A DNA stretch of 38,938 nt. Source: an uncultured Methanosarcinales archaeon (GTDB lineage Archaea; Nanobdellota; Nanobdellia; Woesearchaeales; JAGLXL01). Position 1 is the stretch's first letter. Each line of letters opens with the position of its first letter. Shown piece by piece: positions 30,001 through 38,938 of the stretch. The position numbers were made by a program. Location of the stretch: NCBI GenBank assembly GCA_964472345.1, contig CAYYLB010000005.1, forward strand, positions 1 through 38,938, in the 5' to 3' direction.

Positions 30001-33000
30001 GGCAACGGCAGGCCGCTCGTCTACCTCGACAGCGCATCGACCGCGCAGAAGCCCCGGCAGGTCCTTGACGCGATGCAGCAGTACTATGAGCAGCGGAACG
30101 CGAACGTCCACCGCGGCGTCTATCAGCTCAGCGAACTCGCGACCGAGCAGTACGAATCAGCGCGCGAGCGGGTTGCCGCATTCGTCCATGCGATGCCGCA
30201 GGAGACCATCTTCACGGGCAATGCGACGCAGGCCATCAATGCGGTCGCTTACTCGTACGGATTGCGGAACCTCACCGCAGGGGATAATGTCGTGCTGAGC
30301 GTCATGGAGCACCACAGCAATTTCGTGCCGTGGCAGCAGCTGTGCGCGCTGCGGGGCGCGGAGCTCCGTGTCGCCGGCATTGACGACGCAGGCAACCTGG
30401 ACATCGGGCAGATCAGGCAGCTTGTTGACCGGAGGACGAGGATGGTCGCCGTCAGCCAGATGTCCAACGTGCTCGGCACGCTCAATGACGTGCGCGCCAT
30501 CGCCGACATAGCGCATGAGAAGGGGAGCGTGCTGCTCGTTGACGGCGCGCAGTCGGTGCCGCACCTGCCGGTGGATGCCCGGAAGCTCGGATGTGATTTT
30601 CTCGCTTTCTCGGGGCACAAGATGCTCGGGCCCATGGGCATCGGCGTTCTCTACGGGAAGCATGAGCTGCTGCATGCGATGGAGCCCTTCCTCTTCGGCG
30701 GCGGCATGATCCATCAGGTGACAGTGCAGAAGACAAGCTGGGCAGCGCTGCCGTGGAAGTTCGAGGCGGGCACGCCGAATGTCGCGGGCGCCGTCGGATT
30801 GGCAGCGGCAGTTGACTATCTCACCAGGTTCGGCATGGATGCGGTCTGGGAGCACGGGCAGCAGCTGCTCCGCGCCGCGACGAAGAGGCTTTCCGGGATC
30901 AGCGGCCTTAGATTGTATGGGACTGCACCTCGCAAGGGAGGCATCCTGAGCTTCACGCTCGACGGCATCCATCCGCATGACCTTGCGACCGTTGCCGCCA
31001 GCAGGAACGTCTGCATACGGGCAGGCCACCACTGCTGCCAGCCGCTGATGGAGCGCCTCGGCGTCGCGGCGACGGCACGCGCGAGCTTCTACCTCTACAA
31101 TGATGCGAAGGACATCGACGCGCTCGCGGAAGCGGTTGAGGAGGCGAAGAAGGTGTTTGCACGATGACAGATGGTGGCAGGATCGGTGTGGAGTTTGTCT
31201 GCACGGGAAACAACGGGCGAAGCCCGCTCTGCGAAGTGGTTGCGCGCGCTCGTGTAGATACAAAATACCCGGACCTTTCTCAGCGCGTCGTCATCTCGTC
31301 GAGCGGGATTGATGTCCTGCGCAAGGTTGATTGGACCACGAGAACGTTTGAGTATTGCGCTTGGTTCCTGGAGAAGGGAAATGGCTACCGGCAGGGCGTT
31401 CCGGAGTTTTATGCTCCAGAGCAGGCTGGGTTTGTTGACGCTTTCGTGCGCGGGAATAAGCAGGCAGGCGAGCAATTTAAGGCCGACCAGCTTTTTCGCG
31501 CAAGCGTTGTTTTGCTGGCTGAAGAAACACGAAGAAAGCTTGAGGCAATCGAAGCGGGAAACCGCAACGCTTACTTACGGCAGAATGGGCTGCCTGATCC
31601 TGGAGCGCCGAAGCCTTTTGAGCCAAGGGAGGGCGTTCACTATGTCATCGGAATGGAACCACGGCATGCTGCTGTCGCCAGCGCCGCATACGCTGAACGG
31701 GCGGGCGCAGGACGAACGGGAAGAGGCGACGGAAAGGCAGCCCAGCACATCGCGACCATCGCGGATTTTGTCGGAGAACCTGAAGCCGTTGTTTCGGGCG
31801 CATTCGGAAGCGCGGACCCGCAAAAGTACCGAGCGCTCTACGGCACGCTCGCCGGCCTCAGCAGAAGGGCCATTGACAGGATCGTTCGTGAGATGCAAGA
31901 GCATGCGGATAAGGGACGAGGTTATGCATGATGACGGACGCAGATGAGGGAATGTTCGCCAAAGAATGGCACGCAGCAGATGCCCACCTGCTCTTCGCGG
32001 AGATACTCCACCGCGGGGATACCTCGCACATGCCCCGGCTTTTTGGATTTGCGTATGGCGGGCACCTGTTCACGCTGGAGGACGGAACAATCACATTCTT
32101 CAAGAACAAGGAAACGGAGAGGCGGGCTGCGGAGGCGGGAGCGCACAAATACAGGGACAGCACGTTTCCGCAGTTCCTTGGGGTGCATGTCGGGCGCATT
32201 GAGGCAAACATCAGGCAGACGCTCGACCTCATCGGGAAAGAAACGCTTCCGGCGCTCAGCAACCAGCAGCTGTGGCAGCTCCATGCGGCGTACGTCGAGC
32301 ACATGTCCGAGCTGTACGCCTGTTACCGCTTCACCCGCAAGGATTTTTATGCGCGCGTGATCGAGGATATCAAAGCGCAGCTCCCCGAGCCGAAAGAAGA
32401 GACGCTCAATACCCTGCTTCGGGGTGCGGCCGGTGTCCCGCTGCCTGCGCCTTTTGACTCCCTGATAGAGTCGCTCCGCACCGTCGGGAAGCTGCGCTGG
32501 CACATGCATAAGGTCTGGCTTGACTCGTTTGAGCGCGGAGAGCGCCTCTTCGAGGAAGTCGGGCGGCGCGTCGGGCTCAGCGCGAGAGAGGTGAAGCATT
32601 CATTGTCGGGGGAGGTGCAGGCGTACCTGCTTGAGGGCGCGCAGCCTGATAAGGTCATGCTCCAGAAGAGGATGTCGTATGCTGCAGTTGCCTACACTCC
32701 TGAGGGGTTCACCGTCACCACTGAACGTGTCGCGGTGCAGCAGAAGACCGCACCGGTGGATGAGGTGCAAGGGATGCCTGCCCATCCCGGCTGCGTCCGC
32801 GGGACGGTGCGCATCATCCGCGAGGCGCTCAGGAGCGTTGATGCTGTGGAGCTTTCACGCGTCAGGAAAGGGGACATCATCGTCACCAACATGACCTCAC
32901 CGGACATGATCCTCGCGATGGAGCGGGCGGCGGCATTCGTGACGAATGAGGGAGGAACACTCTGTCATGCAGCCGTTCTGGCACGAGAGATGGGAAAGCC

Positions 33001-36000: not shown

Positions 36001-38938
36001 AAGCAAGATCGCACGATAGAGCTGCAGGCCGCAGTGGATTTTATGGTCCGCCTGACGCTGCACGCGACGATATTCCCCTATTTCGGCTATGAAGCCCTCC
36101 ACGGGCGGAGCACGGATGCCGATGGGCTCCTGAAGCTGGCAGAGGGGCTGCGCGCCGTTTCATTCTATCCGCGCATCATCAGCGACGTTGTCCTGCGCTC
36201 GGCGAAAGCCCGCGCCGGCGATGCGGCTGACGTGCTGCTGCTGTCGGAGGTGCTCGCGGGAGACACGTCAAACGCCGCAGCACGCGGGGGGATGCAACGG
36301 CAGAGTAAGCGGTTCGTCTATCAGCGGCTTGACGGCAAGGAAACGGTTGAATGGGTTGATGATGCGCTTGCATTTATCTGGCAGCTTGAGGGGTTTGATG
36401 CGGCGCAGGAGGTTCGAGGCTCTTGCGCGTGCACGGGAAAAGTCCGGGGCGTTGTGCGGCTTGTCCACATGGCAAATCCCGAAATGCCGTTCAGCAAGGG
36501 GGACATCGTGATCGCGGCAACGCTCAGCCCCACGCTCCTTCCCCTGCTCTCCCGGTGCGGTGCAATCGTGACTGATGAGGGCGGCATGACCTCCCATGCA
36601 GCGATCCTCAGCCGTGAGCTCAACAAGCCGTGCGTGATCGGCACGAAGCATGCGACGCACGTTTTCAGGGACGGCGACCTGGTCGAAGTGGACGCAGAAA
36701 AAGGGGTTGTAAAGAAATTGTTACATCTTAATAGTGGTTAAAAATAGAAATGTTTATAAAGAGGAGATTCCTCGAATGGTGTGGTGATGCAAGAATGGGG
36801 AAAATTTATGTTGTTTTAGCAAGACACGAGAAGAAGGAAAAGTTAGAACCGAAGCCAACACCTGGCGGAGAGCAAGATCGTACGCTTGTTGGGCTAAGTG
36901 AAGCCGGACACGCAGATGCCTTTGCTTCAGGTCAACGAGAACTTGGCGGTAAATCAATAGATAGGGCGGTGGTTGTCCATTCAGGATTCTTACGAACTGA
37001 ACAAACAGCGGAAAAGTGGTTGCGTGGTGCTGGAGTTATGGATGATCTCTACGGGGATGCGGACAGATACCAAGTTGTAGCTGATAGTGCGATTAGCCTA
37101 GCCGGAACAATCTGGGATCCGGAATGCTTCCCCCCATTTGGTGATAAACAGGAGGTTCTCAATGTGTATGTTGAGCATGCCTTAGCCAACCACTACCTTG
37201 CGCAAGCAGACGATCCTAATAATGCTGCCCGACTTCCGATACTGGCAAGAAAAGCCGTCGCTGTCTTGGAAAACCTCGTTCGCGGCGCAGAACGTCTCTC
37301 AAGAACAATCCAGGGAAGGGAAAATGGACTTGTCATTCAGGTGACGCATGGCCCGATTGTTGACGCAGCGGCTATGGCATTCAATGGGGGGATAAACCTC
37401 GAACAGCTTCCAGACTCCAGCTACGGGGTAGCTCAACTATTGCCATTCGTCGCACATCGCGAAGGCGAGTATGTTGTTGGAGTCATTAATGTCCAAGAGC
37501 GCCAGCCTATAGATGATGCCGTGCTCGCGCTGAACATCAAAGGAACGCAACATGAACGTCCCATGGAAATTGTCAGGCGAGACATTGAAAGACTGAAGTA
37601 TATGGCGTTTGGTGGTGTTCAGCGCCATAGCTAATTCACCAGAACCCGCAGGGATTGTTTGGAGTGAAGCAGGTGGTGGGGTCGTGATTGATTGGGATGC
37701 GGTGCGGAAGGTTGACTGGGAAGCGGCAGTCAATAGGCCAGAATCTCCACTGTGGCAATCATATTCTGATGAAGGTCACACTCTACATTTCAGCGAAGCG
37801 ACAGGGCTGCCGTGGGACGCAGAGGTTATCGCCTTCGTCCGCGGTGATGTCTGCTTTTCAGGGAAAAAGCTCGAAGAGCTCCGCAACCTGCTTAAGGAAA
37901 GTCACAACAAAAATCGTGAATTCTTCGCAATGTTTGCCGCGCGCTGCCTGGCGTATTGCACGAAACTCAATGAGGTGGCTGCACAACTCGCAAGGAAGGA
38001 GTACGCGAATGCCCCGTTGGAGGACATCAAGAATGACTTTGCCCTCTTCGATGCTGTTGCGCCAAGACTTTTTTCATTCCTGCTTCCTATGCCTATCGCC
38101 GATGGCGTCTTGTCTGAATTGGTGCGAGAGCGTATCGCAGCAGCGCTTCCTGACAAGTGGCAGAATGATGGTGAAGAGGTCCTCAGGGTAGTGACCTATC
38201 CGGTGAAGGAAAACACCCACACTGCCGAGAGGCTTGGAATGCTCTCTCTTGCCAGGAAGATACGAGAGTGGGGCCTTGAAGAGGGCTGGGAGCGCAACAC
38301 CCGGGTACGCGACGAGCTGGAAAACCACCTGAAGCGCTATGGCTGGATCGGGACGCGGCACTGGTGGTTCCACCGGCCATGGACCGTGGGTGACCTTACC
38401 GGGAGGATCCGGACCCTGCTCAAGAAGGATGCAAACGAGCAAATCCGGCACATCAAAAAGTTACGGGTGGAGAACGAAGAGAATGCTGCGCAGCTGATGA
38501 GTGCGCTGCGGAGTGCTGCAGCCTCTGATTTTGAGCGTATCGTCTCAATCGCAAAAGAATTCGCGTGGCTGCGCACCTACCGGACGGATGTGCTCCATTC
38601 TTCCGGATTCAATGCACGGCACCTCTTTTTCCGGATTGCGGAGCTGATGGGACTCAACCATAAGGATGTGACCTACCTTGGCTCATACGAGATCCGCGCA
38701 TTTCTCGAGGAGGGAAGGACGGCGGTCACCCGCATGGTCATTGATGAGCGACGGAATGGTGCCGAAACACTCCGTCTTGGCCAGCCGCTGATTGTGAGCG
38801 GAAAAGAGCGCGAAAGGCTGCTCTCGATTATGGACAAGAAGCTGAAGCAGGAGCTTCCTGCCGTTGTGAGGGGCACTCCAGCGTTCCACGGGAAATCCGT
38901 TGGTCGCGCAAGAATAGTGCAAAACCAGTTCCAGCTCG

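What a model noticed while it worked through the whole genome (the two positions that open the first line are those of the whole stretch)
31928..38937. Twelve stand-alone 'variable domain + phosphohistidine swivel' modules with no ATP-grasp of their own
The genome holds 12 complete genes (344-485 aa), one fragment and one contig-cut copy that end in a PEP-utilizers swivel domain with the catalytic His. They lack both the ATP-grasp and the PEP-binding domain. They sit in the suf, cdc48 and dnaK operons, partly as coupled tandems. Homologues elsewhere are fused 2-6 in a row, about two in five behind one ATP-grasp domain, which suggests units charged in trans (here perhaps by PpsA). Other loci: C8:11160-13774, C13:9253-10796, C28:5381-7889 and 11960-13276, C43:2609-4048, C56:~552-1991, C82:1139-2209.
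Evidence so far: Pfam and a six-frame search. G000 has 14 matches against 0-3 in 99 of 100 class relatives, with G065 at 6. The swivel domain is 53% identical to the organism's own PpsA, and the N-parts do not align. The N-part of one copy has 2 homologues in 5.8 billion proteins. The only ATP-grasp is in PpsA. Of the top 150 representatives, 118 have 2-6 swivel domains, 52 have an ATP-grasp, 0 have a PEP-binding domain and 27 are single modules. There is an RPH-like stretch before the swivel domain.
(Added by a program. Inside this text positions count along the whole contig: contig position 1 is position 1 of the stretch shown here. "Call 12" and the like, gene names such as g00115 and contig names such as C1 are that model's own, and its searches are not shown. 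The text may have been shortened before it was handed on; [...] marks where a part breaks off. The agent that wrote the report below was given it as the finding of a first reader that could run no searches.)

Follow-up and report, generated by a model that had tools for sequence, protein, structure and literature searches.

The report
Orphan halves of split small-molecule dikinases
This small archaeal genome carries about thirteen genes that each encode the substrate-binding and phosphate-carrying half of a rifampin-phosphotransferase-like kinase but no matching ATP-binding half, a family that turns out to be common, in long gene arrays, in ultra-small symbiotic bacteria and archaea.

Summary
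The genes are real: 12 complete copies, one swivel-only fragment and one copy cut by the contig end, plus PpsA, which holds the only ATP-grasp in the assembly. The N-part is not an unrelated "variable" domain. AlphaFold models of a long and a short window copy (pLDDT 96 and 88) superpose on the rifampin-binding plus swivel domains of RPH (Z 18.5-18.9). Each gene is therefore the "H component" of a split small-molecule dikinase, like HpeH, CreH and phenylphosphate synthase PpsA.

An N-domain profile finds 4,299 representative proteins. They are mostly single ~480-aa modules from CPR bacteria and DPANN archaea. Elsewhere they form tandem arrays of up to 9 module genes per fetched locus, with one stand-alone or fused ATP-grasp in 30 of 71 loci. 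All 50 module-bearing genomes tested have an ATP-grasp.

This genome lacks a dedicated one, as do three others. The donor here is unresolved: PpsA in trans, or a gene lost in an assembly gap. Phosphohydrolase genes recur beside the modules. I rate this a new variant of a known kind. Substrates are unknown.

The parts
31164..31931 (+). LMW phosphotyrosine-phosphatase/arsenate-reductase-like gene (255 aa). It has a C-x5-R motif (CTGNNGRS) at residue 13 and its start and stop overlap SufS and the first module.
   Evidence: Pfam LMWPc 3e-06, 27.9 bits against a cut-off of 23.2, N-terminal 48 residues only. Motif position. Overlaps.
31928..33097 (+). Module 1, 389 aa, native G+C 0.59. Shortened RIF-binding-like N-domain plus swivel. 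Catalytic His347 (codon 32966-32968); conserved Arg190.
   Evidence: PF00391 8.7e-26 at residues 313-383. N-part aligns with paralogues. Residue numbers. G+C.
33094..34533 (+). Module 2, 479 aa, low G+C 0.42 (probable import). Full RIF-binding-like domain (1-~360) plus swivel (~365-477). Catalytic His435 (34396-34398). Arg267 (33892-33894) lies in the column aligned to RPH Arg666.
   Evidence: PF00391 4.1e-24. AF2 model pLDDT 96, pTM 0.93. RPH-Lm 5fbu Z 18.5, rmsd 5.1 A, 420 residues, model 1-477 against chain 328-867. Profile alignment to RPH. 46% identical to a Taylorbacteria protein in L052. Both junctions are bridged by contigs of run X2.
34530..35710 (+). SufU (34530-34958) and SufC (about 34946-35710). 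These are native suf genes that the modules interrupt.
   Evidence: NifU_N 3e-22 and ABC_tran 4.4e-23. SufS-SufU-SufC are contiguous in same-order relatives L108, L110 and L111.
35707..36741 (+). Module 3, 344 aa (357 aa from GTG 35668), G+C 0.61. Short-N subfamily. Catalytic His297 (36595-36597). Arg149 is invariant in the subfamily.
   Evidence: PF00391 1.6e-24. Subfamily alignment A6. AF2 pLDDT 88.3. RPH-Lm 5fbu Z 18.9, rmsd 4.4 A, 288 residues, model 1-339 against chain 323-867.
36750..37634 (+). Histidine-phosphatase-superfamily-like gene (294 aa; RHE at residue 25, THGP at 199). It has a 54%-identical paralogue on C8 near the cdc48 module pair.
   Evidence: His_Phos_1 2.4e-04, 21.3 bits, just under the 21.7 cut-off. 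The C8 paralogue scores 7.8e-09. 54% identity over 283 aa. Motifs.
37609..38937 (+). Module 4, cut by the contig end. 443 aa are visible: the N-domain and the first residues of the swivel. The start codon is uncertain.
   Evidence: N-domain profile 4.0e-105 at 37708-38844. Contigs of runs X1 and X2 extend about 323 nt beyond and match swivel-like sequence. No contig end in G000 carries the missing swivel.

Best explanation
Each gene encodes the acceptor half ("H component") of a split RPH-type small-molecule dikinase. It has an N-terminal helical substrate-binding domain with the fold of the RPH rifampin-binding domain, and a C-terminal phosphohistidine swivel domain.

Inferred cycle, by analogy with RPH and HpeHI:
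1. The swivel docks on an ATP-grasp domain supplied in trans.
2. Its His (His435 in the 479-aa window copy) takes the beta-phosphate of ATP, giving AMP and Pi.
3. The swivel swings back onto its own N-domain.
4. There a conserved Arg (the column of RPH Arg666) positions the phosphate for transfer to a hydroxyl of a small molecule bound in the cleft.

The paralogues are deeply diverged subfamilies, so each probably takes a different substrate.

Shown here: the domain composition, the fold, the conserved His and Arg, the family's range and its array architecture with one ATP-grasp per array.

Inferred only: catalysis, the substrates and the donor in this genome. The only ATP-grasp in the assembly is that of PpsA, which is 50.6% identical to the dedicated stand-alone donor of relative G065. 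PpsA charging in trans is therefore the leading candidate (about 0.4 within this explanation). A dedicated donor lost in an assembly gap is nearly as likely.
For: Fold:
- The 479-aa model (pLDDT 96) matches RPH-Lm over residues 1-477 against chain 328-867, Z 18.5; Foldseek E 1.9e-14.
- The 344-aa model (pLDDT 88.3) gives Z 18.9 over 288 residues.

Sequence:
- A profile of 80 family members aligns with RPH 565-866, E 8.6e-38. The family Arg falls on RPH Arg666 (residue roles from PMC4844700, passages).
- The His is present in 13 of 13 swivel-bearing copies. An Arg or Lys is in the Arg666 column in 10 of the 11 copies whose N-parts align there.

Precedent: HpeH, CreH and PpsA need separate ATP-grasp subunits (PMC12167813, abstract and passages).

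Family context:
- 30 of 71 module loci carry a stand-alone (13) or fused (17) ATP-grasp.
- PPDK_N is present in 50 of 50 module-bearing genomes, and 29 of them have it in a frame of 375 aa or less.
- G065 has a 308-aa stand-alone ATP-grasp.

Function retained in this genome:
- All 12 complete genes are open.
- Six have foreign or intermediate G+C of 0.31-0.47, which points to repeated import and retention.
- For 11 of the 13 G000 modules in the tree, all three nearest leaves come from other genomes.

PpsA-only genomes recur: G056, G161 and G180 have modules and only a PpsA-type ATP-grasp.
Against: - No biochemical data exist for any member of this CPR/DPANN radiation.
- The defining partner, a dedicated ATP-grasp, was sought and not found in G000.
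- RPH Glu667 and Lys670 are not conserved in the family consensus.
- The N-parts of C13:9492-10796 and C82:1139-2275 are not recognised by the N-domain profile or by Pfam.
- NCBIfam models of RPH, PigC/RedH and PRK08296 match far below their cut-offs, and mostly over the swivel alone.
- All genomes compared are metagenome bins. "PpsA only" may therefore reflect missing sequence.
Confidence: 0.7

Rival explanations
1. A dedicated stand-alone ATP-grasp gene (HpeI/PpsB type, ~310-330 aa) exists in this organism but is missing from the 120-contig assembly. It may lie downstream of the module array that the window's contig end cuts. In that case PpsA plays no part.
For: - Relatives normally have one: 29 of 50 module-bearing genomes have a PPDK_N match in a frame of 375 aa or less, and G065 of the same order has one.
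- In arrays the ATP-grasp often sits at the end, as in L023, L032, L040, L078 and L090.
- The window contig ends inside a module. Public contigs also stop about 323 nt further on, in the conserved swivel sequence.
- No contig end of G000 holds the continuation, so sequence next to the array is missing.
Against: - Marker-gene completeness is 100%.
- The PF01326 search and a tblastn with the G065 ATP-grasp find only PpsA, with no fragments.
- Three other genomes (G056, G161, G180) show the same pattern of modules with PpsA only.
Confidence: 0.3
2. The modules work without any ATP-grasp. Either the swivel His is charged from PEP at the PEP/pyruvate domain of PpsA in trans, as in Enzyme I. Or the modules shuttle phosphate between a phosphorylated small molecule and an acceptor, in concert with the neighbouring phosphohydrolases. 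That pairing could act as a kinase-plus-phosphatase substitute for missing mutases or kinases.
For: - HpeH alone transfers phosphate from 4-phosphoacetophenone to acetovanillone (PMC12167813, abstract).
- Phosphohydrolase-type genes (His_Phos_1, HAD, HD, Metallophos, Inositol_P, NUDIX) make up 18 of 113 immediate same-strand neighbours of modules in relatives. Among genes at least 1.5 kb away in the same loci they are 4 of 145 (Fisher p 2e-4). The grouping was chosen post hoc and the loci are not independent.
- Fusions of a module with HAD (P0147) and with NUDIX (P0154) exist.
- In G000 an LMWPc-like gene, two His_Phos_1-like genes, two HAD genes and one HD gene flank modules.
- G000 has GlmS, a GlmU-like gene and ThiE in one operon with two modules and two HAD genes. 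It has no PGM_PMM match, no ThiM match and no ThiD match above cut-off.
Against: - Every module-bearing genome tested has an ATP-grasp (50 of 50), and arrays typically include one. That argues ATP is the normal donor.
- There is no evidence that a foreign swivel can dock on a PEP-binding domain.
- The missing-enzyme argument rests on Pfam absences in a metagenome bin.
Confidence: 0.15
3. The modules are not enzymes for small molecules. They are regulators or protein phosphocarriers. One possibility is a DNA-binding repressor like PspR of Haloferax. Another is a His~P donor that primes neighbouring phospho-enzyme-type proteins (His_Phos_1, HAD, LMWPc).
For: - PspR, an RPH-like protein, acts as a repressor and lacks RIF-phosphorylating activity (PMC10948481, abstract and passages).
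- The recurrent neighbours form covalent phospho-enzyme intermediates in their catalytic cycles (recalled general knowledge, not from any call).
- One homologue carries a response-regulator receiver domain (P0045).
Against: - PspR keeps its ATP-binding domain, and these proteins do not.
- The Arg in the RPH phosphate-binding column is conserved, and the models keep the RIF-binding-domain architecture. That fits a small-molecule site.
- No DNA-binding family is detected.
Confidence: 0.07
4. The copies are non-functional debris of repeated horizontal transfer. They would be orphaned because the ATP-grasp was not co-transferred, and are on their way to decay.
For: - The family is rare in the class: an N-domain match in 4 of 151 genomes.
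- Six copies have deviant G+C.
- One swivel-only fragment exists at C13:9082-9495.
- The modules interrupt a suf operon that is otherwise conserved.
Against: - All 12 complete copies have open frames with the catalytic His intact, including six at native G+C of 0.55-0.61, which implies long residence.
- Several are translationally coupled into housekeeping operons.
- In a 1.26-Mb genome, about 17 kb of dead genes is unlikely to persist (inference).
Confidence: 0.05

Closest known systems
Two-component small-molecule dikinases: HpeHI (Rhodococcus), CreHI (Corynebacterium), phenylphosphate synthase PpsAB (Thauera/Aromatoleum)
   Same: The H/A component is an RPH rifampin-binding-like substrate domain plus a C-terminal His swivel, with no ATP-grasp. 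It is charged by a separate ATP-grasp subunit (PMC12167813). Relatives of the window genes have exactly this split, with stand-alone ATP-grasps of about 310-330 aa that end at the ATP-grasp domain boundary.
   Different: - The known systems are one-to-one pairs, about 600-aa H subunits, in aromatic catabolism of free-living bacteria.
- Here one ATP-grasp accompanies up to 9 module genes per fetched locus. Two overlapping loci of one Nealsonbacteria contig (L033 and L090) together hold roughly 15.
- The modules are about 345-480 aa.
- The hosts are CPR and DPANN symbionts.
- G000 has no dedicated ATP-grasp at all.
NCBIfam PRK08296 models match only the swivel region.
Rifampin phosphotransferase RPH (PDB 5FBS/5FBT/5FBU, 5HV1)
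   Same: The RIF-binding domain plus swivel domain are matched over the whole module (Z 18.5 and 18.9). The catalytic His and the Arg666 column are conserved.
   Different: - There is no ATP-grasp in the polypeptide.
- Glu667 and Lys670 are not conserved.
- Identity is 15-17%.
- The RPH equivalog model scores 59-64 bits against a cut-off of 999.
- The swivel is closer to that of PEP synthase (8a8e, 178 bits) than to that of RPH (134 bits for a longer match).
PEP synthase PpsA / PPDK
   Same: The swivel domain is 42-62% identical to the organism's own PpsA. In relatives, the dedicated ATP-grasps are 39-52% identical to the G000 PpsA ATP-grasp.
   Different: The modules have no ATP-grasp and no PEP/pyruvate TIM-barrel domain. 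The N-domain is unrelated to PpsA.
PigC/RedH/HapC prodiginine ligases and PspR (Haloferax PPS-like repressor)
   Same: They share RPH-like architecture and swivel chemistry. NCBIfam PigC and RedH models match the C-terminal 110-190 residues. PspR shows that the fold can be put to regulatory use.
   Different: All are single polypeptides with their own ATP-grasp. Scores are far below the family cut-offs.
C-terminal PEPut domain of Bacillus/Staphylococcus pyruvate kinase (PDB 2E28, 3T05)
   Same: It is a swivel domain that sits in a protein without an ATP-grasp or a PEP-binding partner domain of the PpsA type. Structural match Z 17.6-18.8 over about 108 residues.
   Different: Only the swivel is shared. 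There it is appended to a complete enzyme, not to a RIF-binding-like domain.

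Membership tests
H component of two-component small-molecule dikinases (HpeH/CreH/PpsA-alpha type) | C-terminal PEP-utilizers swivel domain with the catalytic His in a T/S-x-x-G-G-x-x-x-H context | tested here: met
   PF00391 is over cut-off in all 13 non-PpsA copies that reach the swivel. The His column is conserved in 13 of 13. 12 copies keep the G-G; C13:9492 has G-S.
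H component of two-component small-molecule dikinases (HpeH/CreH/PpsA-alpha type) | N-terminal substrate-binding domain with the RPH rifampin-binding-domain fold | tested here: met
   Met for the 479-aa and 344-aa window copies by structure. Met by sequence homology for 11 of 14 copies. The N-parts of C13:9492 and C82:1139 are not recognised, so those two are inconclusive. C82 has a 26%-identical homologue inside a Patescibacteria array.
H component of two-component small-molecule dikinases (HpeH/CreH/PpsA-alpha type) | A separate ATP-grasp subunit encoded in the genome, usually nearby | tested here: not met
   G000 has one PPDK_N match, PpsA. A tblastn with the G065 stand-alone ATP-grasp finds only PpsA. 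There is no fragment at any contig end. The feature is met in relatives: 30 of 71 loci, 50 of 50 genomes and G065. The assembly has 120 contigs, so absence is not proven.
H component of two-component small-molecule dikinases (HpeH/CreH/PpsA-alpha type) | ATP-dependent phosphorylation of a small-molecule hydroxyl through a phospho-His intermediate | not testable with these tools
   Needs biochemistry.
Rifampin phosphotransferase (RPH) | Three domains in one chain: ATP-grasp, RIF-binding, swivel | tested here: not met
   No PPDK_N in any module. The modules correspond to RPH residues ~323-867 only.
Rifampin phosphotransferase (RPH) | Active-site set Arg666, Glu667, Lys670 with His825 (PMC4844700) | tested here: inconclusive
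   The His is conserved. Arg or Lys sits in the Arg666 column in 10 of the 11 copies alignable there. The Glu667 column is T, D, L, W or S. The Lys670 column is not conserved, but a second basic residue lies at +3 or +4 in most copies.
Rifampin phosphotransferase (RPH) | NCBIfam equivalog score (NF041857, cut-off 999 bits) | tested here: not met
   48.5-63.8 bits for the three complete window modules.
PEP synthase (PpsA) | N-terminal ATP-grasp and C-terminal PEP/pyruvate-binding domain flanking the swivel | tested here: not met
   Only the swivel matches. TIGR01418 scores 80.7-98.5 bits against a cut-off of 739.75. PPDK_N is found only in the C2 gene.

The most novel reading that the evidence does not exclude
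CPR bacteria and DPANN archaea may run a "one donor, many acceptors" phosphorylation system. A single PpsA-like ATP-grasp would charge a battery of up to about 15 separately encoded RIF-binding-like/swivel modules, each aimed at a different small molecule. These modules would be paired, and sometimes fused, with His_Phos_1, HAD, HD or NUDIX phosphohydrolases. The battery would serve as the general kinase, mutase-bypass and salvage (or detoxification) toolkit of organisms that lack conventional kinases. In this genome the imported modules would have been plugged into the central-metabolic PpsA, through its ATP-grasp or its PEP domain, so that PpsA doubles as an Enzyme-I-like hub. Modules in the glmS-glmU-thiE operon would replace the missing GlmM, ThiD and ThiM steps.
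Probability: 0.15. Interest if true: 0.85.

Novelty: new variant of a known kind. Interest (0 to 1): 0.6.

Why it matters
The family is large: 4,299 representative clusters at E <= 0.001. It is concentrated in the ultra-small CPR and DPANN symbionts, whose metabolism is full of unexplained gaps.

I found no description of it. Searches returned no paper that links swivel or PEP-utilizers modules with these lineages. One CPR resistome paper merely counts "rph" hits (PMC8651080, passages). Supplementary tables of DPANN and CPR papers were not searched, so a mention there cannot be excluded.

The genes are currently annotated as hypothetical proteins or mis-called as PEP synthase or RPH. Recognising them as acceptor halves of split dikinases has four consequences:
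1. It corrects gluconeogenesis and antibiotic-resistance calls in these genomes.
2. It gives a concrete, testable biochemical system: ATP-grasp plus module plus a metabolite library.
3. It raises the question of how one ATP-grasp serves many swivel partners.
4. This genome, together with G056, G161 and G180, offers a natural test of whether a housekeeping PpsA can act as the donor.

Tried and rejected
- Complex prediction with the G000 PpsA ATP-grasp (alignment A5), the 479-aa module (A4) and ATP scored 0.00. The verdict was "no answer" and the controls were not run. This is no evidence either way.
- The look-up of sequencing runs listed no RNA holder, so nothing can be said on expression.
- The word-based search for homologous proteins on the 479-aa N-part found only itself and one relative. 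This was a sensitivity limit and not rarity, as the HMMER search showed.
- Pfam and NCBIfam give no family for any N-part. The Pfam copy used predates PF27448 Rph_4th, which the Atlas lists on 19% of one look-alike cluster.
- The N-parts of C13:9492 and C82:1139 were not placed. There is no profile or Pfam match. C82 has one 26%-identical homologue (L057) and C13 has only a weak hit.
- The 275-aa gene coupled upstream of the C43 module has only a sub-threshold HAD_2 hit, E 0.034. This is a lead only.
- PTA_PTB sits beside modules in four relatives, so acetyl-phosphate was considered as a donor. G000 has no PTA_PTB match, so this was dropped for this genome.
- A functional link to Fe-S assembly was rejected: the modules are insertions into a conserved sufS-sufU-sufC block.
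- In-genome duplication as the source of the expansion was rejected. For 11 of the 13 G000 modules in the tree, all three nearest leaves are from other genomes. The tree has long branches and a limited sample.
- PMC4833264 is not held.
- The Micrarchaeota HGT paper PMC12892359 has none of the five search terms in its main text.

Full report
WHAT IS THERE

The window is contig C5 of a 1.26-Mb, 120-contig genome. The genome has archaeal markers: Cdc48, deoxyhypusine synthase, GatD, TrmB and endonuclease dU.

From 24.6 kb onward the window carries a suf cluster:
- SufB with an intein
- SufD
- SufS, 29935-31167
- an LMWPc-like gene, 31164-31931
- module 1, 31928-33097, 389 aa
- module 2, 33094-34533, 479 aa
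- SufU and SufC
- module 3, 35707-36741, 344 aa
- a His_Phos_1-like gene, 36750-37634
- module 4, 37609-38937, cut by the contig end

Genome-wide, PF00391 gives 14 matches. These are PpsA, 12 complete modules of 344-480 aa, and one 137-aa swivel-only fragment. PPDK_N gives a single match, in PpsA.

The cut copy does continue into a swivel. Contigs of two public groundwater runs extend about 323 nt past 38938 and then resemble the swivel of module 3. The same contigs bridge both junctions of the low-G+C module 2, at the same depth as its flanks. The insertion is therefore real in at least one sample besides the possible source sample.

The expansion is lineage-specific. 149 of 150 class relatives have 0-3 PF00391 matches and G065 has 6.

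WHAT THE N-PART IS

The N-parts are not unrelated.
- BLASTP among the paralogues aligns up to about 400 residues at 25-30% identity. An 11-sequence alignment shows shared motifs.
- A family profile aligns with RPH residues 565-866, E 8.6e-38.
- With an 80-sequence alignment, AlphaFold2 models the 479-aa copy at pLDDT 96 and pTM 0.93.
- The model matches RPH-Lm with Foldseek E 1.9e-14.
- VIA-align gives Z 18.5, rmsd 5.1 A over 420 residues, model 1-477 against RPH 328-867. That is the whole rifampin-binding domain plus the swivel.
- The short 344-aa copy (pLDDT 88.3) is a trimmed version of the same fold: Z 18.9 over 288 residues, chain 323-867.
- The catalytic His is present in all 13 swivel-bearing copies. 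The column that the profile places on RPH Arg666 holds Arg or Lys in 10 of the 11 copies alignable there. Arg666 is the phosphate-positioning residue (PMC4844700, passages).
- Two copies, C13:9492 and C82:1139, have N-parts that the profile and Pfam do not recognise.

THE KNOWN KIND

A 2025 paper defines two-component small-molecule dikinases (PMC12167813; abstract and passages read).
- HpeH, CreH and phenylphosphate synthase PpsA carry the RIF-binding-like and swivel domains.
- HpeI, CreI and PpsB are separate ATP-grasp subunits.
- Changing the conserved His abolishes activity.
- HpeH alone can move phosphate between product and substrate.

The window genes have the HpeH architecture.

THE FAMILY ELSEWHERE

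An N-domain-only profile, scored against 1.84 billion representatives, finds 4,299 proteins at E <= 0.001 and 2,221 at E <= 1e-10.
- Of the top 150, 116 are 521 aa or shorter, which means single modules or fragments.
- Of the 34 longer ones, 8 carry PPDK_N. One is fused to HAD, one to a methyltransferase and one to a receiver domain.

Atlas look-alike clusters, and 72 loci fetched from species-representative genomes, are from CPR bacteria and DPANN archaea. Examples are Taylor-, Nealson-, Berkel-, Woese-, Uhr- and Moranii-bacteria, and Woese-, Nano-, Micr-, Iain- and Alti-archaeota. A few bins carry other labels.

Within the class of G000, only 4 of 151 genomes have the N-domain.

Local HMMs over the 71 module loci gave these counts:
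- 127 ORFs with N-domain plus swivel, and 48 ORFs with a swivel and an unrecognised N-part.
- 25 loci with three or more module genes, up to 9 per fetched locus. Two overlapping loci of one Nealsonbacteria contig together hold about 15, followed by one ATP-grasp.
- An ATP-grasp in 30 loci: stand-alone in 13 and fused to a module in 17.

The stand-alone ATP-grasps end exactly at the ATP-grasp domain boundary. They are 39-52% identical to the PpsA ATP-grasp of G000.

All 50 module-bearing genomes tested have PPDK_N. 29 have it in a frame of 375 aa or less, and several of those have no other match, so no PpsA.

G065 has PpsA plus a 308-aa stand-alone ATP-grasp.

THE DONOR PROBLEM IN THIS GENOME

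G000 has no dedicated ATP-grasp. Only PpsA is found by the family search, by tblastn with the G065 protein, and by a scan of all contig ends.

Three other genomes show the same pattern of modules plus a PpsA-type gene only. These are G056 in the same class, and G161 and G180.

Against reading too much into this:
- All are metagenome bins.
- The window contig, and the public contigs, break inside the conserved swivel sequence of an array.
- The continuation is absent from the assembly.

A complex prediction of the PpsA ATP-grasp with a module gave no verdict.

I therefore hold the family assignment at about 0.7. Within it, PpsA-in-trans is at roughly 0.4 and a missing dedicated gene at roughly 0.3 overall.

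ORIGIN AND CONTEXT

- Module G+C ranges from 0.31 to 0.61, against 0.57 for the genome. Six copies are at 0.47 or below, and they sit in 1.5-4-kb low-G+C islands inside high-G+C contigs.
- Module 2 is 46% identical to a Taylorbacteria protein, but at most about 32% identical to its own paralogues.
- In a 117-sequence tree, for 11 of the 13 G000 modules all three nearest leaves come from other genomes. The set was assembled largely by import of distinct subfamilies, not by local duplication.
- In same-order relatives SufS, SufU and SufC are adjacent (L108, L110, L111). The LMWPc-module-module block and the modules after SufC are therefore insertions. The operon position argues for co-transcription, not for an Fe-S role.
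- Other sites: directly after Cdc48, as a coupled pair; inside GlmS-HAD-module-module-CofD-HAD-GlmU-like-ThiE; and 545 nt after DnaK-HD.

A RECURRING PARTNER CLASS

In relatives, 18 of 113 same-strand neighbours within 300 nt of a module or ATP-grasp gene are phosphohydrolase-type:
- His_Phos_1: 6
- HAD: 5
- HD: 4
- Metallophos, Inositol_P and NUDIX: 1 each

Among ORFs at least 1.5 kb away in the same loci the figure is 4 of 145. Fisher p is 2e-4, and for His_Phos_1 alone 6 against 0, p 0.007. The grouping was made after seeing the data, and the loci are related, so the p-values overstate the case.

Fusions of a module with HAD (P0147) and with NUDIX (P0154) exist. G000 shows the same neighbours.

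G000 also lacks any PGM_PMM match and any ThiM match, and has no ThiD match above cut-off. Yet it encodes GlmS, a GlmU-like enzyme and ThiE beside two modules. This suggests amino-sugar or thiamine-precursor substrates. That is inference only.

VERDICT

- These are acceptor halves of split RPH-type dikinases, which is a known kind.
- They belong to a very large CPR/DPANN radiation. I found no description of it in four literature searches. Supplementary files were not searched.
- That radiation is organised as arrays with many modules and one ATP-grasp.
- This genome is an unusual orphan case, and its phosphoryl donor is unresolved.

Noticed in passing
window 24650-26869: The SufB gene is interrupted by an intein with a LAGLIDADG domain (Intein_splicing 1.7e-21, SufBD_N at residues 580-682). 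This coincides with the low-G+C stretch at 25-28 kb.
   Followed up: no
L016:4344-7157 (G000 C8): Cdc48 (937 aa) also carries an intein (Intein_splicing 1.6e-13 at residues 293-456). It lies directly upstream of a translationally coupled module pair.
   Followed up: no
L018:2069-10245 (G000 C28): An operon GlmS-HAD-module-module-CofD-HAD-GlmU-like-ThiE sits in a genome with no PGM_PMM (GlmM) match, no ThiM match and no ThiD match above cut-off. The modules with the HAD genes might bypass the missing steps.
   Followed up: partly
window 36750-37634 and L016:10475-11344: Two histidine-phosphatase-superfamily paralogues, 54% identical, each lie next to a module cluster. His_Phos_1 genes also flank modules in 6 loci of relatives, against 0 of 145 distant genes.
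   Followed up: partly
G000 C13:9082-9495; L033:14067-14429; L046:12896-13183; L100:6387-6788: Small ORFs of about 95-140 aa holding little more than a swivel domain recur inside or beside module arrays. They may be gene remnants or free phosphocarriers.
   Followed up: no
L043:4786-5790, L058:15794-16768, L060:1917-2891, L075:3-650: Phosphate acetyltransferase (PTA_PTB) genes sit directly beside modules in four loci of relatives, three of them DPANN archaea and one a bin labelled Aminicenantes. Riboflavin kinase does so in three (L045, L046, L087). G000 has no PTA_PTB match.
   Followed up: partly
P0147, P0154, P0126, P0045: Single modules occur fused to HAD_2, NUDIX, a methyltransferase and a response-regulator receiver domain.
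   Followed up: no
window 38938 and beyond: Public contigs of runs X1 and X2 extend about 323 nt past the contig end and stop in the conserved swivel-coding sequence. The paralogous swivel DNA is probably what breaks the assemblies.
   Followed up: partly
window 7606-8145: A nickel superoxide dismutase gene (Sod_Ni 9.4e-45) in a small archaeal genome.
   Followed up: no
L020:2109-3307, L019:447-989, L016:9772-10173: Nucleotidyltransferase/HEPN-type pairs and a PIN gene lie next to the low-G+C module islands on C56, C43 and C8. This fits mobile or imported DNA.
   Followed up: no
L025, L027, L031, L038, L053, L064, L078, L081: Module arrays occur in bins of 0.7-1.3 Mb (one of 4.5 Mb) labelled Gammaproteobacteria or Bdellovibrionales. 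For most the small size suggests the labels may be unreliable.
   Followed up: no
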